DNA of 64,000 nucleotides, taken from an uncultured virus (IMG/VR IMGVR_UViG_3300012147_000007). Its lineage: Duplodnaviria; Heunggongvirae; Uroviricota; Caudoviricetes. Location of the stretch: positions 1 through 64,000 of the IMG/VR virus record IMGVR_UViG_3300012147_000007. One strand, written 5' to 3'. The notes beneath the pieces are model-generated. The model ran no database searches. It was not told where the DNA came from and worked only from the letters and a program-made list of their open reading frames with translations. Both the position numbers and the translations under genes were made by a program. Positions 1,648 to 37,258 of this stretch are shown here, piece by piece. Within the stretch, counting starts at the first letter, position 1, and every line of letters begins with the position of its first letter.

Positions 1648-1702
1648 ATTAATAAATATGATAAAAAAAGCAAAAACAAGATTTCGAGCCAGTATGATTT
1701 TG

Positions 1703-1774
1703 AGACAGCGAAGGGATTCAAACCCTTATAACCACACTTTGCAGGTGCGTACCTTATCAATCGGCCACGCTGTC
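1703..1774 (-). tRNA. tRNA-Cys (GCA)
   Basis: Cloverleaf GACAGCG/CGCTGTC, loop CT-GCA-AA, U73. Confidence 0.9.
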
Positions 1775-1787
1775 TTATATTTTATTG

Positions 1788-1872
1788 AGGTCAGGGAGGG
1801 ATTCAAACCCCCGATGGGCTTGCGCCTACAGATTTGCAGTCTGTCGTCTTCAATCACTCGAACCACCCGACC
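1788..1872 (-). tRNA. tRNA-Cys (GCA) with long variable arm
   Basis: GGTCGGG/CCTGACC, ACAGA-CTGCAAA-TCTGT, variable arm GGC-GCAA-GCC, U73. Confidence 0.85.
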
Positions 1873-1891
1873 TTATAAAGGGGAAAGTCAA

Positions 1892-2563: not shown

Positions 2564-2654
2564 TTCTTCTTTTTTTAGTAGTCCTAAAAAGTTGTCAGTT
2601 TTTTCCAGTCTAATTCATCATTATTACTTGTTTTTTGTTTTTAAATTTGCGCAT

Positions 2655-2692
2655 AAAAAAAAGCCCAAACTATTCGAGATAGCTTGAGCTTA
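2655..2692 (-). terminator. Attenuator terminator of Cys leader
   Basis: AAGCTCAAGCTAT...ATAGTTTGGGCTT followed by T run. Confidence 0.85.
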
Positions 2693-2715
2693 AAATTTCT
2701 TTTATTATTATAAAT

Positions 2716-2826
2716 CTACTTCATAACACTCAAACTAACGTTTTTTTTGCAAAACGGACATACCCCTTCCAGGCCGCAATCAATCGCTTGCGAAGTTGGT
2801 CTCCAATATGTCATGTTAGTTTTCAT
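2716..2826 (-). CDS. Leader peptide (3 Cys), putative attenuator of tRNA-Cys unit
   Basis: MKTNMTYWRPTSQAIDCGLEGVCPFCKKNVSLSVMK*; its TAGTTTGAGT can pair with the terminator 5' arm. Confidence 0.8.
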   Translation of the reverse strand: MKTNMTYWRPTSQAIDCGLEGVCPFCKKNVSLSVMK

Positions 2827-2848
2827 CTGTTTATAAATATATTATTTT

Positions 2849-3124
2849 TTATCCAAGCAGCAATCCGCTCTTTTTTTCTTGTTTTTTTGCATCTTTCCAT
2901 TTCCATCCGAGGAAGAATCTGGTACACGCTCTATGAAACCAATTTGGCTTCTTTGTATAGTTGAAGACGATTGAACCTTCTACTTGGTTGCTTCCTGTTA
3001 TATCATATCCTCCAACAACTGGTGGTGGAGTGTATATTTTAACATCTGCAACATCAATTGCTTCATCAATTTCTGGCTTTTTTCTTTCACCAGAATATTC
3101 TTGTTCTTCCCAATATATATTCAT
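2849..3124 (-). CDS. hypothetical protein
   Basis: 91-aa ORF, C-terminal KKPNWFHR...LGWKW motif. Confidence 0.65.
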   Translation of the reverse strand: MNIYWEEQEYSGERKKPEIDEAIDVADVKIYTPPPVVGGYDITGSNQVEGSIVFNYTKKPNWFHRACTRFFLGWKWKDAKKQEKKSGLLLG

Positions 3125-3201
3125 ATTGTAAATATATAAAAATAATATTTAATATCAAATTAATAACCTTTTATTTACGCAGGGACTTATATTATTAATT
3201 G

Positions 3202-3275
3202 TGGGCCCCATCAGACTCGAACTGATAACCTTTTCATTATGAGTGAAATACACTAACCAATTGTGTTAGAGGCCC
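3202..3275 (-). tRNA. tRNA-Ile2-type (CAT)
   Basis: GGGCCTC acceptor, CT-CAT-AA loop; Ile2 rather than Met inferred from acceptor stem. Confidence 0.8.
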
Positions 3276-3285
3276 TTAAATTTTG

Positions 3286-3362
3286 TCGGGAAGGTGAGAT
3301 TCGAACTCACATGTAACCAATTACCCTTTCTACAAGATATAAGCTTGAGGGGATACAACCCG
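3286..3362 (-). ncRNA. D-armless tRNA-like RNA, anticodon TAT (Ile)
   Basis: CGGGTTG-TA-TCCCC-TCAAG-CTTATAT-CTTGT, 21-nt variable region, canonical T arm. Confidence 0.7.
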
Positions 3363-3404
3363 ATACATATGTCTATTTCACTTTCCATTTTATTTATTTT
3401 TTTG

Positions 3405-3502
3405 TGGACAATACGAGAATCGAACTCGTATCTCCAGTTTGCGCTATCCTGTGTGGTTGCACTTCATAGCCTTCACCGATTTACCAATTAATCTAATTGC
3501 CC
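3405..3502 (-). ncRNA. tRNA-like RNA with G3:U70/A73 and expanded anticodon domain
   Basis: GGGCAAT/ATTGTCC-A, normal D and T arms, ~40-nt insert in place of anticodon arm. Confidence 0.7.
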
Positions 3503-3507
3503 TTTTG

Positions 3508-3577
3508 TTGGTGTAGAGGGACTCAAACCCCCGACCCCCTGAATTACAGGTGCTCTAATCAACTGAGCTATACACCG
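3508..3577 (-). ncRNA. tRNA-like RNA with shortened anticodon arm
   Basis: C1:A72 mismatch, normal D/T arms, 13-nt arm CCTG-TAATT-CAGG. Confidence 0.7.
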
Positions 3578-3621
3578 AACTCTTCAATCGCCTTAAGTCG
3601 ATTTCCGAGCTACTTAAGTAG

Positions 3622-3704
3622 TAGTGACGGTGGGAATTGAACCCACTTTGTACTTACGTACCCACGTTATCAGCGTGGTGCCTAAACCATCCAGCCCCGT
3701 CACT
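3622..3704 (-). tRNA. tRNA-Ile (GAT) with long variable arm
   Basis: CCACG-CTGATAA-CGTGG, variable arm GTAC-GTAA-GTAC. Confidence 0.85.
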
Positions 3705-3715
3705 ATAAAAACTCT

Positions 3716-3952
3716 TTAGAAGAGTCTTTCTATTTCAATCCAAGTATAGGAATAAACTCCATTTTGAACTGGTATTCTTTTGCTAATATCCGCTCTTAAC
3801 ACTTTGAACATTGGATACTCTACCAAAAATCTTTCAAGCGCCTCGCTTGGCGTTATCATGTCTCCATCAAAATCAACAAGCCCGCCAACTACTTCCCACT
3901 TGTGTGATTGCCTCCATGTAGTGCAAATACTAAATAAAATATACTCTTCCAT
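3716..3952 (-). CDS. hypothetical protein
   Basis: 78-aa ORF. Confidence 0.6.
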   Translation of the reverse strand: MEEYILFSICTTWRQSHKWEVVGGLVDFDGDMITPSEALERFLVEYPMFKVLRADISKRIPVQNGVYSYTWIEIERLF

Positions 3953-3959
3953 TGCTCTA

Positions 3960-4730
3960 TTAATTCTTTACTTCATCTAAAATATTATATTTTAAACACC
4001 ATTTTCTAACTGTATTATCAGAAACTGCATACTTATTTCCAACCCTTGTAAAATATTTAAATTTTTTAAAATCATCCAATAGAACCATTTTGTTTGGTAT
4101 TCTGCTTTTTCTTTTACAATTATATTCTTTGCACCACTTTTTAATTACACCCAATGAAACCCCTAAGTGTTTAGATAATTCTAAATCACTTTTAAATTTC
4201 GAAAATACCAACACAAATTCTTCTTTATTTATTTTTGGTAAAATATTTATTTCACTAATTACCTTTCCAAGTTTTTCATATTCTCTTTTTATTTTATGAC
4301 ATCTTTTATAATTACCACCTTTAGGGGTTAATCCAGTTTGTATTAATGACTTTCTCATATTCCAGTCATTAATCAACAAATATTCTAATAATTTTTCATT
4401 ACTAATTTTTTCTTTTTTTATTTTATTTCTACCCCTCCAATTACTTGTTAAACCATGGCAGTTTGGACATAGACACTCAAGGTTTGTTTTTTTATTATTT
4501 GTATTATCCCCATCAATGTGATTAATTTCCAAAGGTATATTACACCCTTGCCATTTATTTAATTTACATTTTTTACAAGTTCTTTTATTTTCATATATAA
4601 TATATTCTCTAATCATATCCCAAGATAAATCATCAAAATTTTTACTTAAAATATATTCTTCACGTTTTTTTCTTTCTTCTAAATTATATAACTCCTTTTT
4701 TTCACTAATTCTTAACCACTGACTTGACAT
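3960..4730 (-). CDS. HNH endonuclease with C-terminal HTH
   Basis: LEINHIDGDNTNN..NLECLCPNCH. Confidence 0.9.
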   Translation of the reverse strand: MSSQWLRISEKKELYNLEERKKREEYILSKNFDDLSWDMIREYIIYENKRTCKKCKLNKWQGCNIPLEINHIDGDNTNNKKTNLECLCPNCHGLTSNWRGRNKIKKEKISNEKLLEYLLINDWNMRKSLIQTGLTPKGGNYKRCHKIKREYEKLGKVISEINILPKINKEEFVLVFSKFKSDLELSKHLGVSLGVIKKWCKEYNCKRKSRIPNKMVLLDDFKKFKYFTRVGNKYAVSDNTVRKWCLKYNILDEVKN

Positions 4731-4816
4731 AATATTTGTTTTTTATTATAAATATTATGAAAAAAGTAAAAGTTCGATTTTTTGTTAAATTAATTCGAAC
4801 TTTTACTTTAAATTAG

Positions 4817-4889
4817 TCTCCCCGATAGGACTTGAACCTATTCTCTTTCGATTAAAAGTCGAAGGCTTCCCCTGTTAAGCTACGAGGAG
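4817..4889 (-). tRNA. tRNA-Lys (TTT)
   Basis: TTCGA-CTTTTAA-TCGAA, full cloverleaf. Confidence 0.9.
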
Positions 4890-4905
4890 GTTTTTAATTC
4901 TTTCG

Positions 4906-4977
4906 TGAACCCACCGAGAGTCGAACTCGGTTCCATAGATTAAGAGTCTATAGCATCACCACTAATGCTTTGGGTCC
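4906..4977 (-). tRNA. tRNA-Lys (CTT)
   Basis: ATAGA-CTCTTAA-TCTAT. Confidence 0.9.
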
Positions 4978-5027
4978 AGAATATGTTTATTATCAAGGCC
5001 TGCAACTCTATTGCTTGAGCAAGCCTC

Positions 5028-5063
5028 TTAACGTTTCTTATATTTCATCTTTTTATATTTCAT
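5028..5063 (-). CDS. Lys-rich mini-ORF upstream of tRNA-Lys pair
   Basis: MKYKKMKYKKR* followed by hairpin GAGGCTTGC...GCAGGCCTT. Confidence 0.5.
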   Translation of the reverse strand: MKYKKMKYKKR

Positions 5064-5078
5064 TTTCTTTCTTTTTTG

Positions 5079-5151
5079 AGCTGTTGACAGGGGTCGAACC
5101 TGCGACATCTTCATTACAAGTGAAGTGCTCTACCAACTGAGCTACAACAGC
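5079..5151 (-). tRNA. tRNA-Thr (TGT)
   Basis: CTTCA-CTTGTAA-TGAAG. Confidence 0.92.
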
Positions 5152-5169
5152 ATATTATTATTTTTCTTG

Positions 5170-5242
5170 AGCTGGAGATGGGTCTCGAACCCACAGCCTA
5201 CTGCTTACAAAACAGTCGCACAACCAATCGTGCTCCTCCAGC
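5170..5242 (-). tRNA. tRNA-Thr (TGT)
   Basis: ACTGT-TTTGTAA-GCAGT. Confidence 0.88.
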
Positions 5243-5248
5243 ATTTTA

Positions 5249-5929
5249 TTACCAAGATTTTCCTTCTTTATAATTTTTTCTTCTTCTCTTTCTTCTTCTA
5301 CTATACCTACCATCCCCTTCTGATATAGCTTTCCAACTTTTAGTTAATGCATGATGATTTGGGCATAAAATCTGCAAATTATCTACTTTATTATTATCTG
5401 GATTACAATCTACATGATGCAACTCCAGCGGTATTTTACCTGAATATTTATTTACCTCTTTCCATCCGCACTCCATGCATTTTTCTCCATGTATAGATAT
5501 AAGATAAGTCTTATAAATTTTGGTATGCTCAGTAGTATATTCTCCTTTTTCTATTTTATCAAAAATCTCTTTTCTTTGAAATTCTTGTTGACACTTATTA
5601 TTACAATATTTCTTATTTCCATCTATCTGCTCTTTACAGTTTGTACAATTATTAAACTTTTTTCTTTTTCTATTGTTATAACTCACCCCACATGATTTGC
5701 AACAAAACTTTTTTGGATTAGACTTATTAACTTCAAACCCACATTTACACTCTAAACAACTCCTATCCTCACTACTTGAATTATGTTCTGAAAATTTAAC
5801 TCCAGATTTATTCATTTTATTCCTAACAGAATCAACACTCCTATTTAATTCTTCAGCTATATGATGAAATCTAAACCCATCTATAACAAGCTTTTTAGCT
5901 TTTTCAAACTCTTCTTTGCTCCATTTCAT
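5249..5929 (-). CDS. HNH endonuclease
   Basis: LELHHVDCNPDNN..NLQILCPNHH. Confidence 0.9.
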   Translation of the reverse strand: MKWSKEEFEKAKKLVIDGFRFHHIAEELNRSVDSVRNKMNKSGVKFSEHNSSSEDRSCLECKCGFEVNKSNPKKFCCKSCGVSYNNRKRKKFNNCTNCKEQIDGNKKYCNNKCQQEFQRKEIFDKIEKGEYTTEHTKIYKTYLISIHGEKCMECGWKEVNKYSGKIPLELHHVDCNPDNNKVDNLQILCPNHHALTKSWKAISEGDGRYSRRRKRRRKNYKEGKSW

Positions 5930-6009
5930 ATCTATCTATTTTATAATAAATAGTTAAAAATAATGAGCTTTCAAAATTATTCGAAAACTATACCACTTTC
6001 ATATACCAG

Positions 6010-6083
6010 AGCCTTGTATGGGACTCGAACCCATCTTTCAGACTTACCGAATCTGTACATCAATCCAACAATGCTTACAAGGC
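6010..6083 (-). tRNA. tRNA-Thr (GGT)
   Basis: CAGAT-TCGGTAA-GTCTG (C33). Confidence 0.85.
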
Positions 6084-6109
6084 ATATTTCAAATAACTTT
6101 TACTTTTTG

Positions 6110-6195
6110 GGTGAAAGATGGGTTCTGACCCCACGACCTCCCGATTCACAGTCGGGCGCTCTACGACTTTCGTCTCCAGCTGAGCTACAATCACC
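6110..6195 (-). tRNA. tRNA-His (GTG), D-loop hairpin insertion
   Basis: G-1/C73, CCCGA-CTGTGAA-TCGGG, GAC-GAAA-GTC in D loop, T loop GTCAGAA. Confidence 0.8.
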
Positions 6196-6232
6196 ATATT
6201 AAATTAAAAAGAACTTTTTCTTTTTTTTGTTG

Positions 6233-6306
6233 AGGACCCACCGAGACTCGAACTCGAAATCGCAGATTAACAGTCTGAAGTGATAACCAATTTCACCATA
6301 GGTCCT
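6233..6306 (-). tRNA. tRNA-Asn (GTT)
   Basis: CT-GTT-AA loop, cloverleaf. Confidence 0.88.
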
Positions 6307-6315
6307 TAATTTATT

Positions 6316-6774
6316 TTATTTACTCTTTTCTATTTCTTCATGTATTTCAGCATGACAATTAGAACACACTAAAATACATTTATCTAATTCTTTTTTTACT
6401 TTTTCCCAAGACCTCGTATAACCTTTGTGACCTATACCAAATTCTTTTTCATTTGGGTTTAAATGATGAAACTCTAAAGCTCTACTACATTTATTATACC
6501 CACACCTTTCACAACAACCACCTTTATACTCAATTGACAATTGCTTAACCTTTTTCCTTCTATTTTGAACTGCTTCAACATTTTTCTTTCTTTTATCTTC
6601 TTTTTGAAGGGGTGATAAAGTTCTTTTACTTACATATTCTAACACTGTAGTTTTACTCACTCCAAACTCTTTAGCTACAATCCTTGATGATTTTCCAGAA
6701 TTATACTCTTTTTTAATTAATTTAATTAGTTCTTCACTAATTTTTTTTCCTTTTTTACTTTTTAATTCGTCCAT
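6316..6774 (-). CDS. HNH endonuclease with N-terminal HTH
   Basis: YKGGCCERCGY..ALEFHH..KCILVCSNCH. Confidence 0.9.
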   Translation of the reverse strand: MDELKSKKGKKISEELIKLIKKEYNSGKSSRIVAKEFGVSKTTVLEYVSKRTLSPLQKEDKRKKNVEAVQNRRKKVKQLSIEYKGGCCERCGYNKCSRALEFHHLNPNEKEFGIGHKGYTRSWEKVKKELDKCILVCSNCHAEIHEEIEKSK

Positions 6775-6828
6775 AATATTAACTTTGTTTGTTAAAAAAT
6801 AGGACTAAATTTTTCAAAGCATCACTTG

Positions 6829-6900
6829 CGACTCCAACGGGGCTCGAACCCATAACAAATGATTAACAGTCAAACGTGATACCAATTTCACCATAGAGTC
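6829..6900 (-). tRNA. tRNA-Asn (GTT)
   Basis: GACTCTA/TGGAGTC-G, CT-GTT-AA. Confidence 0.88.
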
Positions 6901-6949
6901 ATATTTCAAATTTTAAGATTCTGAACGTTTCTCAAAAACCTTTGGACAC

Positions 6950-6978
6950 AAAAAAAGCCCGACCTATTGGCCGAGCTT
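6950..6978 (-). terminator. Attenuator terminator of Asn/His/Thr/Lys/Ile leader
   Basis: AAGCTCGGCC-AATA-GGTCGGGCTT plus T run. Confidence 0.9.
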
Positions 6979-7004
6979 CTGTATATTTTAAATTGTACTT
7001 GTGA

Positions 7005-7115
7005 TTAAATTAGTTCATCACTTCCATTTTTGCTTATACATAGCTCGACCATACCATTTTGCTTTTTATTGCAAATCGTATTATTAATCGTTGTATGTAT
7101 ATTTAATGAGTACAT
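7005..7115 (-). CDS. Leader peptide (N/I/H/T/K block), putative attenuator
   Basis: MYSLNIHTTINNTICNKKQNGMVELCISKNGSDELI*; TGGTCGAGCTATGTATA complementary to TATACAGAAGCTCGGCCA. Confidence 0.85.
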   Translation of the reverse strand: MYSLNIHTTINNTICNKKQNGMVELCISKNGSDELI

Positions 7116-7160
7116 TGTGTTTCTTTTTTCTAAATAGTAATTAAAAATTCTTTTTTTGTT

Positions 7161-7232
7161 TTCTTCTACGCAAATATATAACTTTTGTTCTATTAAATCC
7201 AAATCTTTTTTAAAGAAATATTGAAAATAATT
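7161..7232 (-). promoter_or_regulatory. Promoter module shared with 21560-21632
   Basis: Near-identical ~70-bp block containing GAACA-N-TATATTTGCGTAGA. Confidence 0.75.
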
Positions 7233-13965: not shown

Positions 13966-14044
13966 GTTTCTTTATACGGGCAAAGATATATAATGTTCTA
14001 CTAATTACCAAAAGAATTTTAATCTTTTTTTAAACCACTATAAA

Positions 14045-18106: not shown

Positions 18107-18163
18107 AATTAAACAATCCTACCAAAATCTCTTTTACCAACTTTCATTATTTGACTCCGCATG

Positions 18164-18237
18164 TACCGATGAAGGGTTTCGAACCCTAAGCCTTATCCTT
18201 ATGAGGGATACGTACTAACCTATTATACGACATCGGC
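18164..18237 (-). tRNA. tRNA-Met (CAT)
   Basis: TATCC-CTCATAA-GGATA. Confidence 0.85.
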
Positions 18238-18272
18238 ATGTGATGGATTGATAGCTCCATCGGGCATTTTCC

Positions 18273-19360
18273 TTATGAGAATCCATTGTTCTTCTTCCAC
18301 TGCTCATGCTTTTGCTCAACACTATACATGAAAGAACCTCCTGGAATTACCTTCGCATCTGGGAATCCGTTTTCTGTTGTCAAAACAGATTCTGATTCTT
18401 TTATTGCACCAGTAAACTTTCCAGCACCTTTCTTATTTTCAATATTACCTGTTGAAGGATTGTATTAAAATTAATTTTTACTTTTTTTAGTTTATTTATT
18501 AATAAACCAAATATGAAACCTAAATATACAAACGAACAACTTAAACATGCTAAGTCTTTTGATAAATTACCATTAGAATGTTATGAATGTAATAAAGATT
18601 TTTTTATAGCAAAGACGCACATCAAAGATGCTAAAAATCCAAATTGCAAAAGAACTGGTGAATTTTGCTCAAAACAATGTTTGTCTTTATCAAAAAAAAC
18701 AAAAGCTAAATATAATTGTCATAACTGCGGAAAAGAATGTGAAAAAAAGATTTCTCAAATAAAACTATCAAAATCAGGTTATAATTTTTGCTCAAGGAGC
18801 TGCACATCATCTTATCATATGAAAAACAAAAAATACGGCACAAATAGGTCTAAATTAGAACAGTGGATTGAAATTCAATTAACAAAATTATACCCAAATC
18901 TTAAAATATCTTATAATGACAGGCAAATTTTAAATCCTTTGGAATTAGATATATTTATCCCAGAATTGTCAATAGCATTTGAATTAAACGGCATTTTTCA
19001 TTATGAACCCATATTTGGACCTGAAAAGCTAAATAAAACTCAAACTAAAGATTTCAACAAACACAAACTTTGCTTTGATAAAAGGGTGGATTTATGTGTA
19101 ATTGACACATCAAGTCAAAAATATTTTAAAGAACAGACATCTAATAAGTTTTTAAATATAATTATAAAAATTATTCAAGAAAGATTTTAATTCTATGTAA
19201 CTTATTTGAACAAATAATCCGTTCTAACACCACCCTTAGGCTCAATAAACTCTACCATATAAGACTGTTCAGTTCCATCATTCATATGAACAATCAAGTT
19301 ACCAGTTTCATCTCGGTTCACTAAAAAATTCTTTCTCACCTCTTCTCTCTTGTCTTTCAT
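18273..19360 (-). pseudogene. Hypothetical gene split by an opposite-strand endonuclease
   Basis: 5' half 19202-19360 (MKDKREE...GGVRTD), startless 3' half 18273-18464 (YNPSTGNIENKKGAGKFTG...). Confidence 0.65.
18513..19190 (+). CDS. Zn-finger + PD-(D/E)XK-like homing endonuclease
   Basis: FCSRSC, RSKLE, ELDIFIP..AFELNGIFHY; paralog of 43994-44695. Confidence 0.85.
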   Translation: MKPKYTNEQLKHAKSFDKLPLECYECNKDFFIAKTHIKDAKNPNCKRTGEFCSKQCLSLSKKTKAKYNCHNCGKECEKKISQIKLSKSGYNFCSRSCTSSYHMKNKKYGTNRSKLEQWIEIQLTKLYPNLKISYNDRQILNPLELDIFIPELSIAFELNGIFHYEPIFGPEKLNKTQTKDFNKHKLCFDKRVDLCVIDTSSQKYFKEQTSNKFLNIIIKIIQERF

Positions 19361-19406
19361 GACTTTTGTTTTTAAAATTATATTTTATTTCATTATCGAA
19401 CAAATG

Positions 19407-19480
19407 AGCAGGTAGACGGGATTGAACCGTCTCTATTCCAGATTGGAAATCTGGCGCACCACCATTTATGCGTTACCTGC
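19407..19480 (-). tRNA. tRNA-Gly (TCC)
   Basis: CCAGA-TTTCCAA-TCTGG, U73. Confidence 0.9.
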
Positions 19481-19485
19481 GTTTG

Positions 19486-19640
19486 TGGACATGGGAGGAA
19501 TTAAACCCAAGACGTAAATCTCGCTTACTTTGCTCCTGAAATGACTAATGCGCACTTATCAATTCACTCACGTTTCAACCCTTAGCTTTCTTAGCACCAA
19601 CACCAAAGTTGGGACGGTTCATCTCACCGCAAGCATATCC
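19486..19640 (-). ncRNA. 155-nt RNA with tRNA-like ends
   Basis: GGATATG/CATGTCC-A, degenerate T arm, GCTTGC/GTAAGC stem enclosing several hairpins. Confidence 0.55.
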
Positions 19641-19675
19641 ATATTTGCCTATTTATAGTCGTAGCAAGGACTTTG

Positions 19676-19748
19676 AGCGAAATGTGGGAATCGAACCCCG
19701 TCTTCTCCTTGGAAGGGAGACGCTTTCAGCCATTAAGCTACATCTCGC
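19676..19748 (-). tRNA. tRNA-Gly (TCC), possible 8/4 fold
   Basis: GCGAGATG/CATTTCGC, TCTCC-CTTCCAA-GGAGA, short T stem. Confidence 0.8.
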
Positions 19749-19953
19749 ATATGGAGTCATTTATACACAGCTCCTGAGTGTTTATTTTACTTATTAAGAT
19801 TTTTTAATTTATCTTTCTTATTGTCCTCTTGGGTAATTCTTAATCTTGCTGCGAAGTCCATTTGTGAAATTAGTTTTTTAATCCTATCAGGGTCTTCATT
19901 TTCTTTATTTTTCATAGTTTGGTTTTTAACAATATTATAGCCTTCAACTTTTG

Positions 19954-20037
19954 TGGGGGTGGTTGGATTCGAACCAACTCAGACCTATGCCAATGGTGTT
20001 ACAGACCATCCCAACTCTCCAACTTTGGCGCACCCCC
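19954..20037 (-). tRNA. tRNA-Tyr (GTA)
   Basis: ATGGT-CTGTAAC-ACCAT, long variable arm. Confidence 0.88.
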
Positions 20038-20163
20038 AGTTTACGAAATTTCTTTTATTTTCAGTTTGCGGATTTCGTAATCCCATTTCTGCTATTCTTA
20101 ATTTGTCAGGGAACAAAGCACTGACAAACGTCTTGTCTGAATTGTAAAATTCATTTCCCTTAG

Positions 20164-20236
20164 TGGAGGTGGTCGAAATCGAATCGACCTCAGGAACATT
20201 GCAAATGTTTCTCGCCAGCCTTGGACATGCACCCCC
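20164..20236 (-). tRNA. tRNA-Ala (TGC)
   Basis: G3:U70, TT-TGC-AA. Confidence 0.85.
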
Positions 20237-20296
20237 ATTGCGCTATGGTGGAAAGTACTTTCCTATGGTTACCATAACTTATTTATCCGCTTTTTG

Positions 20297-20374
20297 TGGA
20301 GAAATAGGGAGTTTAACCCAGTTCAGTCGCTCCGCTAAGCTGTTACACAACATTAACTGAATACTTAAATCTCC
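20297..20374 (-). ncRNA. Degenerate tRNA-like RNA
   Basis: GGAGA/TCTCC-A ends, GGGTTAAACTCCC T-like arm, TTCAGTT/GACTGAA stem. Confidence 0.45.
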
Positions 20375-20375
20375 A

Positions 20376-20893
20376 TTATTTATTATTTTTCATAATTTCA
20401 AAGTACTTCTGATTCCTCAATCTTTTTTTCTTGTCGATTCTATTTCTAAAATCTTTAAGAAGAGGTTCTGGAATCTGGATGCCCCTCTTTTGGAACTCTC
20501 CTAATATTTCTTCCTCTGTAAATGTCCAGTCGCAAATTCCATCGCTCCACTGGTCCACCCAAAGACCAAAACTTCTTTTTCCACTCATTACAGCTTTGAC
20601 GATATTCGGATGTCTTGTCCTTATCACTGTATTCCTCTTGATGTCTCCGTTTTCAACTTGCCTAAAGCAATATTTACCTTCTTCACCATTTGGGTCAAAC
20701 TCAGTTTCTATTATTGAGCCTGAGAATTCTAATAACCCACTTCTATAGCTCTTAAGAAAAAATATAAACATTTCATTGAAGTTATCAGAATATTTTCTAA
20801 GCTTCCTGTTTTTTCTACTTCCTACTTTCTTTTTTTGCTCATCAAGCCTACTTAACTTCTGGCTCCCAAGCGGTGTTCTCCTTGCTCTTTCAT
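20376..20893 (-). CDS. hypothetical protein (start probably frameshifted in an A run)
   Basis: Long ORF; nearest ATG at 20893 is one base out of frame. Confidence 0.6.
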
Positions 20894-20930
20894 TTTTTCT
20901 AAATTTATAAATTAATTTAACATTACCCAG

Positions 20931-21003
20931 CGGTCCCGAACGGATTCGAACCGTCAACCATCTCGCAGACAACGAGCTACACTACCAATTGTGCTACGGG
21001 ACC
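20931..21003 (-). tRNA. tRNA-Asp (GTC)
   Basis: TT-GTC-TG loop, G73. Confidence 0.85.
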
Positions 21004-21009
21004 TTATTG

Positions 21010-21083
21010 TCTAAGTGACAGGGGTCGAACCTGCGGCCTGAGCGCCCCAAACGCCCCACTCTACCAAACTGAGCTACACCTAG
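21010..21083 (-). tRNA. tRNA-Pro (TGG)
   Basis: C1:G72, TT-TGG-GG. Confidence 0.9.
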
Positions 21084-21091
21084 ATATTTTG

Positions 21092-21167
21092 CGGTCTATA
21101 CGGTTTTCGAATCCGTCTGATATTCCTCCGTGACAGGGAGGTGGACACCCAAGCATCCCCATAGACC
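21092..21167 (-). tRNA. tRNA-Asp (GTC)
   Basis: CCTCC-CTGTCAC-GGAGG, G73. Confidence 0.85.
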
Positions 21168-21178
21168 ATTTTTTTAAG

Positions 21179-21254
21179 TCTGATGAGCTGGATTTGAACC
21201 AACGTGCTGCAATTTCCAAAATTGCCGAGATAAGCCTGACTCCTCTATCACCAG
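21179..21254 (-). tRNA. tRNA-Pro (TGG), A37
   Basis: GCAAT-TTTGGAA-ATTGC. Confidence 0.85.
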
Positions 21255-21331
21255 ATATTTTACTTTAATTTCCAAGATGTCAATTTTTTACTTTCGAAAG
21301 ACTCAGTGACGTTTCACAAAAGTCTATAAAC

Positions 21332-21365
21332 AAAAAAAGCTCGGTCCTTTTTGGAACCGAGCTTT
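21332..21365 (-). terminator. Attenuator terminator of Pro/Asp/Ala/Tyr/Gly/Met leader
   Basis: AAAGCTCGGTTCC-AAAAA-GGACCGAGCTTTTTTT. Confidence 0.9.
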
Positions 21366-21391
21366 AAACTATTCGTTTAGATATTATATTA

Positions 21392-21511
21392 TCAAACTTT
21401 AAGTTTATGCAAAACGATTCCGTCCCTGCTGCAATCATCTGCCGCTGGCGCCCCCATATAGCCCATCGGGTTAATTGAAGTGTTCTCGTTATATGTATAA
21501 ACTTTTTCCAT
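21392..21511 (-). CDS. Leader peptide (PMGYMGAPAADD block), putative attenuator
   Basis: MEKVYTYNENTSINPMGYMGAPAADDCSRDGIVLHKLKV*. Confidence 0.85.
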   Translation of the reverse strand: MEKVYTYNENTSINPMGYMGAPAADDCSRDGIVLHKLKV

Positions 21512-21646
21512 TTGAATTTGTTTCTCTTTTTTCTAAATAGCAGAAAATTTCTTTTTCCGCTTTCTTCTACGCAAATATATAACATTTGTTCTATTAAATC
21601 CAAATCTTTTTTAAAGAAATATTGAAAATAATTTTGAACCTCTTGA

Positions 21647-22280: not shown

Positions 22281-22362
22281 TTGTTTATTTAATTAATTAT
22301 TAGTTTAGCGACTACAAAATAAGCCAAAATTTACAACCTATGCAAATTTTAGCCTATATTTT

Positions 22363-34377: not shown

Positions 34378-34378
34378 G

Positions 34379-34456
34379 CGCAGATGTCAGGATTCGAACC
34401 CGAACAGAATTAACACGGGGTTGGAATCCGCTTAGCTCACCAATGCATGCACCTGC
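34379..34456 (-). tRNA. tRNA-Trp (CCA)
   Basis: GCGGA-TTCCAAC-CCCGT, G73. Confidence 0.8.
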
Positions 34457-34488
34457 GTATATTTTGTGACCGAGGGAGGACTCAAACA

Positions 34489-34986
34489 TTAATCAATTAT
34501 CCCTCCATGTATTTCTCTATGACAATTTGAACATACTAAAATGCATTTATCTAATTCTTTTTTTACAGAATCAGTTAATTTTAAAAGTTTAATTCCACCC
34601 AGTTGAAAATCTTTTTCTTTCGGGTCGAGATGATGAAATTCCAATGCTCCACAATATTTATCATATCCGCACTTTTCACAACACCCTCCTTTATATTTAA
34701 CTGCAATAATTTTAAACCCCCTTTGCCTTTCAACTGTTTGCTCGTTAGTACAAGGCTTGCAATATGATGATGCTCCAGCCTTTCCTTTTCTTTGATAAAA
34801 TTCTACCAACTTCTTTTCTTTGCTACATCTCGGACACACTCTTTCTGTTTTTTCTCTGCTCTTACTTTTTAATTCATACTTCTTAAGCCAATACCTAATT
34901 GTAGTCTGACTTAAATTAAATTCATAACCCATTTGTCTTGTGGTCATTTTTTTATCAACCGACTTTTTTAACAACTCTTTTTCCAT
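34489..34986 (-). CDS. HNH endonuclease
   Basis: ALEFHHLDP..KCILVCSNCH; paralog of 6316-6774. Confidence 0.9.
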   Translation of the reverse strand: MEKELLKKSVDKKMTTRQMGYEFNLSQTTIRYWLKKYELKSKSREKTERVCPRCSKEKKLVEFYQRKGKAGASSYCKPCTNEQTVERQRGFKIIAVKYKGGCCEKCGYDKYCGALEFHHLDPKEKDFQLGGIKLLKLTDSVKKELDKCILVCSNCHREIHGGIID

Positions 34987-35036
34987 ACTAATAAATATGA
35001 AAAAAAAATATTATTTCATTTTGAGCTATAACTCTG

Positions 35037-35110
35037 AGGCCTTAGCGAGATTCGAACTCGCAACCTTTTGTTTAGGAAACAAAAACTCTGTCCAGTTGAG
35101 CTACAAGGCC
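35037..35110 (-). tRNA. tRNA-Arg (CCT)
   Basis: TT-CCT-AA, A20. Confidence 0.88.
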
Positions 35111-35113
35111 AAG

Positions 35114-35197
35114 TGATGCAAGCAAGCCAGGTTCTGCTCCTGGTTCCGCCTAAGCGGTATGCTCTGATGAACGTTCTTTTACAACATTACTCACATC
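35114..35197 (-). ncRNA. Multi-arm small RNA with 11-bp closing stem
   Basis: GATGTGAGTAA/TTGCTTGCATC, CCGC-TTAG-GCGG, CCAGG-AGCAGAA-CCTGG. Confidence 0.55.
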
Positions 35198-35199
35198 TT

Positions 35200-35282
35200 T
35201 GGTACACCAGGCGGGATTCCAACCCACATTTTCAGCTGCAATTACGGATAGCAATTTAGAAAAATGCCTCGGCTACTGGTGC
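35200..35282 (-). ncRNA. D-armless tRNA-like RNA, anticodon TCT (Arg), encoded CCA
   Basis: GCACCAG-TA-GCCGAG-GCATT-TTTCTAA-ATTGC, 23-nt variable region, T arm, ACCA. Confidence 0.65.
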
Positions 35283-35304
35283 TTATTTTTATAACTTTAT
35301 TTTT

Positions 35305-35878
35305 CTAAATATCTTTTTTTCTTGCAGAATTTTTATTCTTTGATTTATATGTATCTAACTGTGAATCGCAATTAGGACAAATTAATCGTAAATTATTTCT
35401 TAAATTATTACCAGCATCTCCATCTATATGGTCTAAAATAAAAACAATTTCCTTATCATTCCAAGTATTGGAATTATTACATATATCACATCTATTTTCT
35501 TGTTCTTTTAATATGTGAGATTTAATAAAATGCATATTTCTAACATAACAAAAATCACTTTGATTATTTAAGTAATTTTCATAAAATTTATTCTTTTTAT
35601 ATTTTTTTTCACATATTTTACCACAAAACTTTTGATTATAATGAGTTGTTAATTTAAACTCTTCATTACAATTAAGACAGTTTACCTCTTTTTTTATTCC
35701 TTTATTATGTGGCACATGCTCAGAATTAAACTTCTTTCTTTTTCTCTAACACAATACCTAATTTAATAGCATTTCTCCTTATTGTTGTATCAGAAACTTT
35801 ATATTTTTTAGCCACTTCAGTATAAGATAATTTTTCAACTATAATTAACTGATATAATTCTTCTTTATTGTATTTCAT
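35305..35878 (-). CDS. HNH endonuclease (frameshift in A run near 35740)
   Basis: LDHIDGDAGNN..NLRLICPNC; HTH N-terminus in adjacent frame. Confidence 0.8.
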
Positions 35879-35975
35879 ATTATAATTTTATTATAAATAT
35901 AAATATTTTTAACAAACCGATTACTAATGATAAATTGTTTTACACCTATGCATAATCGACTTGCAAACATATATG

Positions 35976-36049
35976 TGACTCCGATAGGATTCGAACCTAT
36001 AACCGTCAGGGTAGAAACCTGATGCGCTATCCAGTTGCGCCACGGAGCC
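35976..36049 (-). tRNA. tRNA-Arg (TCT)
   Basis: TCAGG-TTTCTAC-CCTGA, A20. Confidence 0.92.
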
Positions 36050-36055
36050 ATTTTG

Positions 36056-36142
36056 CGGAAGTAATGGGGCTCGAACCCATGCACCCCTTGCGGGGCCTAA
36101 TAACTTTCCAAGCTATCCTCTTTACCATTTGAGTATACTTCC
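36056..36142 (-). tRNA. tRNA-Ser (GGA)
   Basis: TT-GGA-AA, long variable arm, G73. Confidence 0.9.
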
Positions 36143-36149
36143 ATTAATA

Positions 36150-36241
36150 TGGCGGAGAGAGAGAGATTCGAACTCTCGATACCAGTTTCCCAGTATAACA
36201 CCTTAGCAGGGTGCCGCCTTCAACCACTCGGCCACCTCTCC
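36150..36241 (-). tRNA. tRNA-Ser (GCT)
   Basis: CT-GCT-AA, long arm, CCA. Confidence 0.93.
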
Positions 36242-36250
36242 GTATTTTTG

Positions 36251-36323
36251 TGGATTCAGCAGGATTTGAACCTGCAACCAACCCCTTTGCAAGAGCCGCT
36301 CTATCCAGTTGAGCTATGAATCC
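36251..36323 (-). ncRNA. Arg-like tRNA body with GCAA-capped anticodon arm
   Basis: A20 D loop; 18-nt arm GGCTCTT-GCAA-AGGGGTT. Confidence 0.7.
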
Positions 36324-36345
36324 AAGGGAACCATGTCTTCCCTCT

Positions 36346-36433
36346 TGGCGGTAGATATGGGGTTCGAACCCATGTTCCCTTTCGGGGCTACCTGTTTAGC
36401 AAACAGGCCTCTTTACCATTTGAGTAACCTACC
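36346..36433 (-). tRNA. tRNA-Ser (GCT)
   Basis: CCTGT-TTGCTAA-ACAGG, long arm, CCA. Confidence 0.9.
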
Positions 36434-36438
36434 AGTTG

Positions 36439-36520
36439 CACGGGGGTGAGGATTCGAACCTCACTCATCTTAAGGGAGCGACCCCTCAGATTTCCAGTGT
36501 AGCTACACTTCAAACCCCGT
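36439..36520 (-). ncRNA. tRNA-like RNA without canonical D/anticodon arms
   Basis: ACGGGG/CCCCGT, GTGAGG-TTCGAAT-CCTCAC, two tetraloop arms. Confidence 0.6.
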
Positions 36521-36528
36521 GTATATTG

Positions 36529-36617
36529 CGGAGGCGGCAGGATTCGAACCTGCGGACCCCTTTCAGGGCCACTGCTTTTCAAGAGCAGCGCAATAAACCA
36601 GACTCTGCCACGCCTCC
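36529..36617 (-). tRNA. tRNA-Ser (TGA)
   Basis: CT-TGA-AA, long arm. Confidence 0.93.
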
Positions 36618-36622
36618 GTATT

Positions 36623-36790
36623 TCAATTTTCTTCTTTATAACGTTTTATAAAGAACTCTCTTAATTCTTCCTTCCTTTTAATTGATGCCTTGATTCTCGC
36701 CACCTTTTCTGGAGAAGGGTCTGTATCAACTGTAAATTTGATTCCATTTTTCTCACAATAATCTGTCATTTCTTCAAAACAATTTTCCAT
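36623..36790 (-). CDS. hypothetical protein
   Basis: MENCFEEM... small ORF between tRNAs. Confidence 0.55.
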   Translation of the reverse strand: MENCFEEMTDYCEKNGIKFTVDTDPSPEKVARIKASIKRKEELREFFIKRYKEEN

Positions 36791-36804
36791 CTTTCTATTT
36801 TTTG

Positions 36805-36892
36805 CGGAGGGAGAGGGGGTCAAACCCTCAAGGCCGTTAAGCTCGCTGGGGTTCAAAACCAGTGCAGTCGTCTACTTTCTGCTTGCCCCTCC
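36805..36892 (-). tRNA. tRNA-Ser (TGA)
   Basis: TT-TGA-AC, long arm. Confidence 0.85.
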
Positions 36893-36906: not shown

Positions 36907-36941
36907 AAAAAAAACCCTAATTCAAAAAGAACCAGGGTTTC
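36907..36941 (-). terminator. Attenuator terminator of Ser/Arg/Trp leader
   Basis: AAACCCTGGTTC-TTTTT-GAATTAGGGTTT plus T run. Confidence 0.88.
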
Positions 36942-36963
36942 AAATATTTTTATAACAGTATCG

Positions 36964-37056
36964 TTACATAACATTTTGACATACCAGTGTTCTTTCCGTA
37001 GCTCTATTCGAACTCGAACTCCATCTGGACCATCTATTTGTTATTACTGTTTTCAT
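36964..37056 (-). CDS. Leader peptide (RWSRWSSSSNR block), putative attenuator
   Basis: MKTVITNRWSRWSSSSNRATERTLVCQNVM*. Confidence 0.88.
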   Translation of the reverse strand: MKTVITNRWSRWSSSSNRATERTLVCQNVM

Positions 37057-37258
37057 CTTATTTCTAAATATAGGAAAAAAAGTTTATTTCTTCTTTCCTC
37101 GTGTTTTATTTTTATTATCGTCTTTACCTTTTTCTTTTTTAAGTTGTTTCATCCAACCTTCTAAGGCTTCTAAATTTGCGTGTGTGCTATTTACTGACAT
37201 CTAATTGTTTTCTTCTACGCAAATCTATAACAAATGTTTCAATAAATCAAATCTTTTT

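What the first reader, a model, noticed from the sequence alone, without database searches (positions are those of the whole stretch)
21332..21511. Pro/Asp/Ala/Tyr/Gly/Met leader attenuator
Twelve consecutive codons (PMGYMGAPAADD) use only, and all of, the six amino acids whose tRNAs follow at 18164-21254. The block is GC-rich in an AT-rich genome, so it is not compositional noise. GGGACGGAATCGTTTTG (21410-21426) can pair imperfectly with CTAAACGA and TCGGTTCC of the terminator arm. This ORF is absent from the supplied track.
Basis: partly seen in the sequence, partly recalled or inferred. Interest (0 to 1): 0.9.

Follow-up and report, generated by a model that had tools for sequence, protein, structure and literature searches.

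The report
Leader-peptide switch before phage tRNA genes
A tiny gene written in the codons that the tRNA genes just behind it read, followed by a transcription stop signal, probably lets this uncultured phage make those tRNAs only when ribosomes read these codons slowly, a control known for amino-acid genes but not found in print for tRNA genes.

Summary
A 39-codon ORF (21511..21392, minus strand) sits between a repeated promoter and a strong intrinsic terminator (21365..21336). Nine tRNA genes follow, for Pro, Asp, Ala, Tyr, Gly and Met. Codons 15-26 use exactly those six amino acids.

It is not a one-off. The window holds two more such units and a near-identical longer record holds two more, one with seven Gln codons before four tRNA-Gln genes. 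Four diverged relatives repeat the design, and leader composition changes with array content.

- **Codon matching:** in a test that chooses neither ORF nor frame, the true pairing of upstream region and array ranked first in 4 of 5 genomes. Pooled, 0 of 20,000 permutations reached it.
- **Antiterminator:** a segment just after each codon run pairs with the terminator's 5' arm (16 of 26 units at p<0.05; swapped terminators 0 of 20,000). For this unit alone the pairing is no better than shuffles.

Best reading: ribosome-stalling attenuators that sense tRNA supply and gate phage tRNA transcription. Nothing here is experimental. Ten literature searches found no such control of tRNA genes. Earlier notes of this scan report the same idea on other DNA.

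The parts
21572..21604 (-). Promoter of unit A, with two boxes of the kind recalled for Bacteroidota. It lies inside a repeated element, 21518-21620.
   Evidence: The pattern scan found it. Copies of 21518-21620 lie at 7115-7219 (90% identical), 37209-37259 and 46601-46647. The boxes are conserved upstream of leaders in five genomes.
21531..21540 (-). Conserved A/T-rich box in the 5' leader, about 20 nt before the start codon. It may help translation start.
   Evidence: Seen and aligned across units. Its function is inferred only.
21392..21511 (-). Leader ORF of unit A: 39 codons plus a TGA stop.
21434..21469 (-). Regulatory codon run, codons 15-26. It contains only Pro, Met, Gly, Tyr, Ala and Asp codons.
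   Evidence: By strict wobble, 11 of the 12 codons are readable by the downstream tRNAs.
21410..21426 (-). Candidate 5' strand of the antiterminator. The core is 21415..21421 and it starts 13 nt after the run.
   Evidence: It pairs with the terminator's 5' arm in the nascent-RNA fold. As a duplex it is not significant alone (p=0.40, p=0.43). An ortholog in relative G002 has a 10-bp partner at the same place (p=0.002).
21329..21365 (-). Intrinsic terminator: a 12-bp stem, a 6-nt loop and a T run.
   Evidence: Hairpin energy is -18.1 kcal/mol.
18163..21254 (-). The tRNA array that unit A would gate: Pro, Asp, Pro, Asp, Ala, Tyr, Gly, Gly, Met, with a few ORFs in between.
   Evidence: The promoter pattern scan found no second promoter inside the array.
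6947..7203 (-). Unit B. Promoter 7203..7171; leader ORF 7115..7005; run of 14 codons for Asn, Ile, His, Thr, Cys and Lys at 7103..7062; antiterminator strand 7050..7042; terminator 6979..6954.
   Evidence: duplex -16.1 kcal/mol, p=0.001; run of 14; 1 of 594.
1702..6900 (-). Array of unit B: Asn x2, His, Thr x3, Lys x2, Ile, Met, Cys x2, plus some weaker tRNA-like genes.
   Evidence: tRNA-His at 6110-6194 comes from the Rfam alignment.
36912..37251 (-). Unit C. Promoter 37251..37220; a first small ORF; leader ORF 37056..36964; run of 9 codons for Arg, Trp and Ser at 37035..37009; terminator 36940..36912.
   Evidence: run of 9; 1 of 594. The antiterminator duplex gave p=0.04.
34378..36892 (-). 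Array of unit C: Ser x5, Cys, Arg x2, Trp, plus one doubtful call with anticodon atc. The first tRNA starts about 20 nt after the T run.

Best explanation
The ORF at 21511..21392 is the leader of a ribosome-mediated transcription attenuator that gates a phage tRNA array.

**Proposed mechanism**
1. Transcription starts at the repeated promoter (21604..21572). A ribosome translates the leader while RNA polymerase moves on.
2. If the codons of the run (Pro, Met, Gly, Tyr, Ala, Asp) are decoded fast, the ribosome runs over the segment just after the run. The terminator hairpin (21365..21336) then forms and transcription stops before the tRNA genes.
3. If the matching charged tRNAs are scarce, the ribosome stalls in the run. 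The segment just ahead of it (about 21426..21410) stays free and pairs with the terminator's 5' arm. Polymerase then reads through into the Pro, Asp, Ala, Tyr, Gly and Met tRNA genes.

**What this gives the phage.** Each tRNA sub-array gets its own negative feedback on the decoding of its own codons. The phage has at least five such modules. Three are in this window.

**Shown:** the anatomy, the codon-to-array matching, its covariation across genomes, and family-wide complementarity between leader and terminator arm.

**Inferred:** that the ORF is translated, that stalling occurs, the direction of the switch, and that readthrough is the only source of array transcripts.
For: **1. Anatomy.** Promoter, short ORF, terminator and tRNAs lie on one strand. 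The promoter element recurs before the other units.

**2. Matching within this phage.**
- Longest runs of leader codons readable by the unit's own array are 9, 14, 9 and 7 for units A, B, C and E.
- For A, B and C, 1 of 594 control ORFs reaches the run, and that ORF is the leader itself. For E, 0 of 594 do.
- At amino-acid level, the true pairing of 5 leaders with 5 arrays ranks 1 of 120.

**3. Codon-level specificity**.
- The Arg codons in unit C's run are AGA, and its array holds the tct anticodon.
- Unit D uses CGT, and its array holds acg.
- Unit B has both Lys codons and both Lys anticodons.
- Unit C's run samples all three Ser isoacceptor classes.

**4. Blind test.** Units D and E lie beyond this record's end, and I read them after forming the hypothesis. 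E has seven Gln codons before four tRNA-Gln genes. D is rich in Leu, Phe, Val and Arg before tRNAs for those four.

**5. Covariation in relatives G002, G003, G005 and G006**.
- The leaders differ in sequence from ours but keep the matching composition.
- Where arrays are split or regrouped, the leaders follow: Leu+Cys, Lys+Ile, Gln+Phe+Arg+Val.
- Cys appears in a leader where Cys tRNAs lie in its array.

**6. Test with no choice of ORF or frame** (26 automatically found units).
- The true pairing ranks 1 of 720, 1 of 6, 1 of 120, 4 of 5,040 and 1 of 120 in the five genomes.
- 20 of 26 upstream regions score best with their own array.
- Pooled, 0 of 20,000 permutations reach the observed value.

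**7. Antiterminator.**
- A segment 40-75 nt upstream of the terminator pairs with its 5' arm. 16 of 26 units reach p<0.05 against dinucleotide shuffles (Fisher 4.8e-14).
- Swapping terminators within a genome gives 0 of 20,000.
- In all 8 units studied closely, the fold of the nascent RNA with a ribosome stalled in the run pairs 6-12 bases of the 5' arm.

**8. No room for a separate promoter.** In units C and E the first tRNA starts within about 20 nt of the terminator's T run.

**9. Rare codons.** Run codons favour rare G-ending synonymous codons. Mean RSCU is 1.12 against 1.49 +/- 0.08 expected, and G is the third base in 18 of 53 against 12% in the genome. This fits a sensor tuned to slow decoding.
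Against: - **Weak antiterminator in this unit.** For unit A the antiterminator duplex is no better than shuffles (p=0.61 over the whole leader; p=0.40; p=0.43).
- **Other non-significant units.** 10 of 26 units do not reach p<0.05.
- **No anti-antiterminator.** No consistent hairpin between the run and the antiterminator strand was found. Without a ribosome, the antiterminator is still the minimum-energy fold in 5 of 8 units.
- **Equilibrium favours the terminator.** With the 3' arm present, the terminator is in the minimum-energy fold in 8 of 8 units. The switch would therefore have to work kinetically.
- **Unit D.** Its consecutive-run statistic is not significant (run of 3; 139 of 594 control ORFs reach it), although 14 of its 33 codons match.
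- **Imperfect match in unit A.** One codon of the run (GGC) is not read by the array's Gly tRNA under strict wobble. Only 15 of the leader's 38 codons match overall.
- **Atypical tRNA genes.** Two tRNA genes of this array (Ala and the second Asp) are atypical.
- **Possible own promoter.** The 80-nt spacer between terminator and first tRNA in unit A could hold a promoter of a type I did not scan for.
- **Related genomes.** The five genomes are related, so they are not independent samples.
- **No direct data.** There is no expression, ribosome or 3'-end data. The host is unknown.
Confidence: 0.8

Rival explanations
1. The switch is the same but the signal is amino-acid supply (tRNA charging), not the amount of tRNA. 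The phage would be reading host starvation, as classical attenuators do.
For: A ribosome stalls for lack of charged tRNA whatever the cause. The sequence cannot tell the two causes apart. The anatomy is that of classical attenuators.
Against: Making more tRNA does not relieve a shortage of amino acids, so the regulated genes do not fit that signal. The leaders match at the level of codon and isoacceptor, not only amino acid (Arg AGA versus CGT, both Lys codons, three Ser classes). They also favour rare G-ending codons. Both points suggest decoding by particular tRNAs.
Confidence: 0.2
2. The small ORF and terminator are a stand-alone unit (a small-protein gene or small RNA) and the tRNA arrays are transcribed from their own promoters. 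The codon match would serve some purpose other than transcription control, for example a translated test mRNA whose stability or product reports tRNA supply.
For: Unit A has an 80-nt spacer before the first tRNA. In relative G002 a protein gene lies between terminator and array. The antiterminator of unit A is weak.
Against: In units C and E the first tRNA follows the T run within about 20 nt. No second promoter of the shared type lies inside the arrays. Complementarity between leader and terminator arm is specific to each unit's own terminator (0 of 20,000 swaps), which a stand-alone gene would not need. Orthologous peptides keep composition but not sequence, which argues against a folded protein.
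Confidence: 0.08
3. A mechanism without ribosomes: the codon run in the leader RNA binds the anticodons of the tRNAs directly, like a T-box, and this decides termination.
For: The run is by construction complementary to the anticodons of the downstream tRNAs.
Against: No T-box or other known leader family matched at E<=1 or at gathering score. The runs always lie in frame in an ORF with a start codon at a conserved distance from a conserved upstream box. Triplet pairing with many different tRNAs, without a structured platform, is not known to be stable (established knowledge).
Confidence: 0.03
4. Chance. The terminator merely ends the upstream genes and the ORF is a meaningless open frame.
For: Short ORFs are common in AT-rich DNA: one search listed 110 ORFs of 20 aa or more in 7 kb.
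Against: A promoter lies between the upstream genes and the ORF. The tests gave 1 of 594 or 0 of 594 control ORFs, rank 1 of 120 and 0 of 20,000. The design recurs in five genomes.
Confidence: 0.01

Closest known systems
Leader-peptide transcription attenuators of amino-acid operons (trp, his, phe, leu, and the multivalent thr and ilv leaders). Names recalled; principle as in the abstract of PMC1183508 and passages of PMC3082878.
   Same: A promoter-proximal short ORF, a cluster of regulatory codons cognate to what the operon supplies, an intrinsic terminator, and a competing antiterminator exposed when the ribosome stalls. As in the thr and ilv leaders, several amino acids are read at once.
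   Different: The regulated genes are tRNA genes, not biosynthetic enzymes. The variable that can be corrected is tRNA supply. Up to seven amino acids are sampled per leader and the choice tracks the array. The antiterminator strand lies inside the ORF, upstream of the stop codon. No anti-antiterminator hairpin was found. It is carried by a phage, in five or more paralogous copies.
Leader peptides in front of aminoacyl-tRNA synthetase genes: leuS, trpS, alaS and thrS in Streptomyces lividans (PMC8079986, passages read); E. coli pheST (recalled).
   Same: Leader-peptide control of a component of the translation supply chain rather than of amino-acid synthesis.
   Different: Those control one protein gene with one amino acid each. 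Here the controlled genes are the tRNAs themselves, in sets.
T-box riboswitches (recalled).
   Same: They sense tRNA status and decide between terminator and antiterminator upstream of genes for tRNA charging.
   Different: A T-box binds one uncharged tRNA directly and needs no ribosome. No T-box match was found here, and the signal is read through an ORF.
The long tRNA array (trn operon) of Anabaena sp. PCC 7120, silent until translation is impaired (PMC8421152, passages read).
   Same: A set of extra tRNA genes that is switched on when translation falters.
   Different: There the control lies in direct repeats over the promoter, presumably a repressor site. The paper's text contains no 'attenuat', 'leader' or 'terminator'. 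It is one switch for the whole array, not resolved by codon family.
Drug-sensing leader peptides such as that of bmrCD (PMC4191407, search listing only) and the erm and cat leaders (recalled).
   Same: A ribosome stalled on a short leader ORF remodels downstream RNA structure.
   Different: In those, stalling is caused by an antibiotic and depends on the nascent peptide, not on a shortage of the tRNAs that the downstream genes encode.

Membership tests
Ribosome-mediated (leader-peptide) transcription attenuator | A short ORF between the promoter and the regulated genes, on the same strand | tested here: met
   The ORF 21511..21392 lies 60 nt downstream of the promoter's second box and 137 nt upstream of the first tRNA. 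The layout is the same in the other units.
Ribosome-mediated (leader-peptide) transcription attenuator | A cluster of regulatory codons cognate to what the downstream genes supply | tested here: met
   A 12-residue block uses exactly the six amino acids of the array. Only 1 of 594 control ORFs reaches the codon run. With ORF and frame not chosen, 0 of 20,000 permutations reach the observed matching.
Ribosome-mediated (leader-peptide) transcription attenuator | An intrinsic terminator between the leader ORF and the regulated genes | tested here: met
   12-bp stem plus T run at 21365..21329. Energy is -18.1 kcal/mol.
Ribosome-mediated (leader-peptide) transcription attenuator | An antiterminator that excludes the terminator and is left free by a ribosome stalled on the regulatory codons | tested here: inconclusive
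   For this unit the pairing is present in the nascent-RNA fold and well placed, 13 nt after the run. Its energy is no better than shuffles (p=0.40; p=0.43). For the family the feature is met: 16 of 26 units at p<0.05, Fisher 4.8e-14, swapped terminators 0 of 20,000.
Ribosome-mediated (leader-peptide) transcription attenuator | An anti-antiterminator or pause hairpin (1:2) that gives termination when the leader is not translated, as in the classical trp model | tested here: not met
   No consistent pairing of the run with the antiterminator strand was found. Without a ribosome the antiterminator persists in the fold of 5 of 8 units. Not every known attenuator has this element (recalled).
Ribosome-mediated (leader-peptide) transcription attenuator | Regulated genes are amino-acid biosynthesis, transport or aminoacyl-tRNA synthetase genes (all published members that I know or found) | tested here: not met
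   The downstream genes are tRNA genes, with a few small ORFs of unknown role. This is the point of novelty.
Ribosome-mediated (leader-peptide) transcription attenuator | Readthrough rises when decoding of the regulatory codons is slowed | not testable with these tools
   This needs in vitro or in vivo assays. No RNA run holding the stretch was listed.
T-box riboswitch | A match to the T-box covariance model (specifier loop, T-box sequence) | tested here: not met
   There was no T-box hit in 17500-22500 at E<=1, nor in the whole window at gathering score.
Anabaena-type stress-induced tRNA array | Tandem direct repeats over the -10 box and the transcription start that confer regulation | not tested
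   I did not look for such repeats. The promoter here is followed by a leader ORF and a terminator, which that system is not reported to have.

The most novel reading that the evidence does not exclude
The phage carries a panel of codon-family-resolved sensors of tRNA supply. Each sub-array of tRNA genes would be an independent module that fires only when its own codons are decoded slowly.

The natural trigger would be loss of host tRNAs during infection, through host anticodon nucleases and other tRNA-cutting defences or through phage-induced decay of host RNA. On this reading the attenuators are an inducible counter-defence that replaces exactly the tRNAs under attack. They evolve by co-variation of leader codons and array content.
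Probability: 0.3. Interest if true: 0.95.

Novelty: new variant of a known kind. Interest (0 to 1): 0.88.

Why it matters
**An open question about phage tRNAs.** Why large phages carry dozens of tRNA genes, and when they use them, is debated. The proposals (recalled) are codon-usage matching and escape from host tRNA-cutting defences. A built-in switch that ties each tRNA set to the decoding speed of its own codons would show that these tRNAs are made on demand. It would also give a direct handle: the leader tells which codons the phage monitors.

**A wider use for an old mechanism.** It would extend the textbook attenuation mechanism from amino-acid supply to tRNA supply. It would be an autoregulatory loop in which a tRNA represses its own gene through the ribosome.

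**A practical part.** It would offer compact, modular sensor parts (about 250 nt) that report decoding of chosen codons.

**Easy to test.** The design recurs with covarying leaders in at least five related uncultured phage genomes here. By unchecked notes of this scan it also recurs in many other genomes. It can be tested at once in a coupled transcription-translation system.

Tried and rejected
- **Known RNA families.** Rfam over 17500-22500 at E<=1 gave only tRNAs and sub-threshold noise: GibS at 32.8 bits against 115 needed, and L20 leader at 22.3 against 58.7. The whole window at gathering score gave tRNAs and one GOLLD RNA.
- **Similarity of the leader to tRNA genes or other parts of the genome.** Only the promoter part is repeated. 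The leader is therefore not a decayed tRNA copy.
- **GenBank phages.** DNA search matched only tRNA genes. The ClpB-like marker protein found nothing above 53% identity. I found no cultured close relative.
- **Synteny.** The upstream neighbour gene found one diverged relative (L018, 64%), but there the gene is not next to a tRNA array. I reached that genome's arrays through its handle instead.
- **Promoter pattern search in IMG/VR.** It returned only near-identical copies of this phage and one unrelated hit.
- **RNA evidence.** No RNA holder was listed. One run of uncertain type held 0.05 of the sampled words and I did not lay reads on it.
- **Classical 1:2 anti-antiterminator.** Not found.
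- **Choosing leaders by rule.** Both 'most upstream ATG' and 'longest ORF' pick a wrong frame in some units. I replaced the choice by a test that chooses neither ORF nor frame.
- **Script problems.** Both analyses were then run in another form.
- **Earlier notes of this scan.** There were none for this genome or for look-alike stretches.
- **Other tRNA groups in the window.** The groups at 12920-13176 and 43327-44828 have no such leader.

Full report
**What is at the site**

The window is the first 64 kb of a 117,229-base uncultured virus record with 34.4% G+C. All 29 tRNA genes that ARAGORN calls lie on the minus strand.

At 21511..21392 on that strand is a 39-codon ORF ending in TGA. Twenty-six bases after its stop codon lies a terminator-like hairpin at 21365..21336, with 12 pairs (6 G-C) and a 6-nt loop, followed by a T run. 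Its energy is -18.1 kcal/mol.

Eighty bases further on the tRNA genes begin: Pro, Asp, Pro, Asp, Ala, Tyr, Gly, Gly, Met, down to 18163. Two are atypical. tRNA-Ala (20163-20236) needs a lowered ARAGORN threshold. Rfam lists neither it nor the second tRNA-Asp.

Codons 15-26 of the ORF (21469..21434) use only, and all of, these six amino acids. The block is GC-rich, 0.52-0.53 against 0.34. That follows from the Pro, Gly and Ala codons.

**More than chance**

- The six amino acids make up 0.287 of the phage's long ORFs. A 12-residue window drawn only from them is expected at about 3e-7 (my arithmetic).
- Under strict wobble rules, 11 of the 12 run codons are readable by the anticodons downstream. 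GGC is not, which leaves a longest unbroken run of 9.
- Of 594 ATG-started ORFs of 20-60 codons in the record, only this ORF itself reaches 9.

**The decisive observation: the unit is repeated**

The 100 bases upstream of the ORF (21518-21620) recur at 7115-7219 (90% identical), 37209-37259 and 46601-46647. They contain two boxes spaced like the promoter consensus I recall for Bacteroidota (the consensus is recalled, not tested).

Two of these copies are followed by the same arrangement.

- **Unit B** (leader 7115..7005, terminator 6979..6954).
  - It has a run of 14 codons for Asn, Ile, His, Thr, Cys and Lys.
  - It precedes tRNAs for Asn x2, His, Thr x3, Lys x2, Ile, Met and Cys x2.
  - tRNA-His comes from the Rfam alignment.
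- **Unit C** (leader 37056..36964, terminator 36940..36912).
  - It has a run of 9 codons for Arg, Trp and Ser.
  - It precedes tRNAs for Ser x5, Cys, Arg x2 and Trp.

Each run is matched or exceeded by 1 of 594 control ORFs, and that ORF is the leader itself.

**A blind test**

A near-identical but longer record (G001, 195 kb) continues beyond the end of ours. It holds two more tRNA clusters. I located their terminators and tRNAs first and then read the upstream ORFs.

- One ORF has seven consecutive Gln codons, a mix of CAG and CAA. It stands before four tRNA-Gln genes with anticodons ttg x3 and ctg.
- The other is rich in Leu, Phe, Val and Arg codons. It stands before Phe, Val, Leu x3 and Arg tRNAs.
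  - For this second unit the unbroken-run statistic is not significant (run of 3; 139 of 594 reach it).
  - Even so, 14 of its 33 codons match.

With five leaders and five arrays, the true pairing ranks 1 of 120.

The matching holds at codon level:

- The Arg codons in unit C's run are AGA, and the tct anticodon is in its array.
- Unit D uses CGT, and its array holds acg.
- Unit B uses both Lys codons, and its array holds both Lys anticodons.
- Unit C's run samples all three Ser isoacceptor classes present downstream.

Run codons are also biased to rare synonymous codons. Mean RSCU is 1.12 against 1.49 +/- 0.08 expected. G is the third base in 18 of 53 codons, against 12% in the genome.

**Diverged relatives**

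One relative, G002, was reached through the upstream neighbour gene (64% identical). Three more, G003, G005 and G006, were reached through a ClpB-like marker (57-63% identical). All carry 40-56 tRNA genes in same-strand clusters.

In each, short ORFs ending just before terminators head the clusters.

- **Composition is kept, order is not.**
  - The counterpart of our leader in G002 is 42 residues long, and its order of residues differs from ours.
  - It is again built mostly of Pro, Ala, Gly, Tyr, Asp and Met.
- **Where arrays are regrouped, the leaders follow.**
  - A Leu+Cys leader stands before a Leu/Cys array (G005, G003).
  - A Lys+Ile leader stands before a Lys or Lys/Ile array (G005, G006).
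  - A Gln+Phe+Arg+Val leader stands before that set (G005, G006).
- **Cys tracks its tRNAs.** The G002 counterparts of units B and C lack Cys codons, and their arrays lack Cys tRNAs.

To avoid choosing ORFs by eye, I detected units automatically: a terminator, an ORF ending within 70 nt upstream of it, and a tRNA within 500 nt. This gave 27 candidates, 26 of them with arrays. Three look spurious and were kept in the tests.

I then scored the 165 nt upstream of each terminator in all three frames against the codon set of every array in the same genome.

| Genome | Rank of the true pairing |
|---|---|
| G000/G001 | 1 of 720 |
| G002 | 1 of 6 |
| G003 | 1 of 120 |
| G005 | 4 of 5,040 |
| G006 | 1 of 120 |

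Twenty of 26 regions score best with their own array. Pooled, 0 of 20,000 permutations reach the observed sum. The genomes are related, so this shows conservation with covariation, not five independent inventions.

**How it probably works**

The layout of promoter, short ORF with cognate codons, terminator and regulated genes is that of a ribosome-mediated attenuator. The missing element is an antiterminator.

- **The segment exists across the family.**
  - In the eight units studied closely, a segment starting 3-17 nt after the run pairs with the terminator's 5' arm.
  - Against 1,000 dinucleotide shuffles, p is 0.40, 0.001, 0.04, 0.005, 0.11, 0.002, 0.10 and 0.012. Fisher's combined p is 1.7e-7.
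  - Over all 26 automatic units, 16 reach p<0.05 (Fisher 4.8e-14).
  - Swapping terminators among units of one genome never gives as much pairing (0 of 20,000).
- **The geometry fits.**
  - I folded the RNA that is free when a ribosome sits in the run and the terminator's 3' arm is not yet made.
  - That fold pairs 6-12 bases of the 5' arm in all eight units.
- **This unit.**
  - Its duplex energy alone is no better than shuffles. The G002 counterpart has a 10-bp partner at the same position (p=0.002).

I infer the following switch. With fast decoding, the ribosome runs over this segment and on to the stop codon, so the terminator forms. When the ribosome stalls in the run, the segment is free just ahead of it, captures the 5' arm, and polymerase reads into the tRNA genes.

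Two findings limit this model:

- No anti-antiterminator hairpin was found. An untranslated leader would probably read through in 5 of 8 units.
- With the 3' arm present, the terminator is the minimum-energy fold in 8 of 8 units. The switch must therefore be kinetic, as in known attenuators.

Readthrough being the route to the tRNAs is supported by units C and E. There the first tRNA starts within about 20 nt of the T run. No further promoter of the shared type lies inside the arrays.

In unit A an 80-nt spacer leaves room for a promoter of another type.

**What it is like, and what it is not**

It works like the leader-peptide attenuators of amino-acid operons, especially the multivalent ones.

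The nearest published cases touching the translation machinery are leader peptides before synthetase genes (PMC8079986, passages; E. coli pheST, recalled).

It is not a T-box.

The Anabaena tRNA array also switches on under translational stress. It is controlled through promoter repeats, and that paper's text mentions no leader, attenuator or terminator (PMC8421152, passages).

Ten full-text searches found no leader-peptide attenuator of tRNA genes, in phages or cells. The library lacks most subscription journals, so older work could be missed.

Earlier notes of this scan report the same idea on other DNA: 77 notes in at least 71 genomes. One describes a 43-codon Pro/Ala/Gly/Tyr/Asp/Met leader that resembles the G002 unit. 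These notes agree with my reading. I formed it before seeing them, and I did not use them as evidence.

**Verdict**

- I file it as a new variant of a known kind: a known switch logic applied to tRNA genes in a phage, in multiple codon-matched copies.
- Confidence in the attenuator reading is about 0.8.
- Still open: whether the natural trigger is defence-driven loss of tRNA, and whether the leader is translated at all.

Noticed in passing
window 11174-11600 (-): A full-length match to the GOLLD RNA family (169.4 bits against a gathering score of 150). It lies between two tRNA clusters of the phage.
   Followed up: no
window 43865-43937 (-); relatives L113, L119, L108, L023; L111 (reverse strand, 2795-2867): A tRNA with anticodon cta, which ARAGORN labels Pyl, i.e. 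an amber-suppressor type. It is present in every relative examined. G005 also has a tRNA with anticodon tta. This raises the possibility of stop-codon recoding in this phage group. The five leaders in this phage end in TGA or TAA, not TAG.
   Followed up: no
window 21306-21317 (-), about 6923-6935 (-), and L015 about 3528-3545: A small hairpin with a conserved loop sits just after the terminators of units A, B and D. The stems differ between copies but stay complementary. It may be a processing or protein-binding site.
   Followed up: no
window 13820-14012 (-): Another promoter-like copy (14012..13981) is followed by about 160 nt of relatively GC-rich sequence that looks structured, ending in a T run. 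Then come a 71-aa ORF and two odd tRNA genes: one with a 25-nt intron call and one with an unreadable anticodon. There was no Rfam match.
   Followed up: no
window 18513-19190 (+) and 43994-44695 (+): Two paralogous ORFs of 225 and 233 aa lie inside tRNA arrays on the opposite strand. The first matches a zinc-finger family (zf-FCS, E=3e-7). They look like mobile genes, of the homing-endonuclease kind, inserted between tRNA genes. ORF 20376-20972 (-) also sits inside array A and has no Pfam match.
   Followed up: partly
window 52808-54823 (-) and 39063-41174 (-): The phage encodes a ClpB-like double AAA+ protein and an FtsH-like protein with a Peptidase_M41 domain. It also has a UvrD-type helicase at 61908-63422 (-).
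   Followed up: partly
L106 (reverse strand) about 1010-1062; L118 (reverse strand) about 1215-1268: In relatives G003 and G006 the Pro/Asp/Tyr/Ala/Gly leader seems to begin at an in-frame GTG about 50 nt upstream of the first ATG. That would give an N-terminus like those of the other leaders. The ATG-only ORF calls therefore truncate these leaders.
   Followed up: no
L015 7384-7466 and 7526-7606: In the Gln unit a tRNA-Leu (anticodon aag) lies between the promoter and the leader ORF. The leader mRNA would therefore be made as one transcript with a tRNA upstream of it.
   Followed up: no
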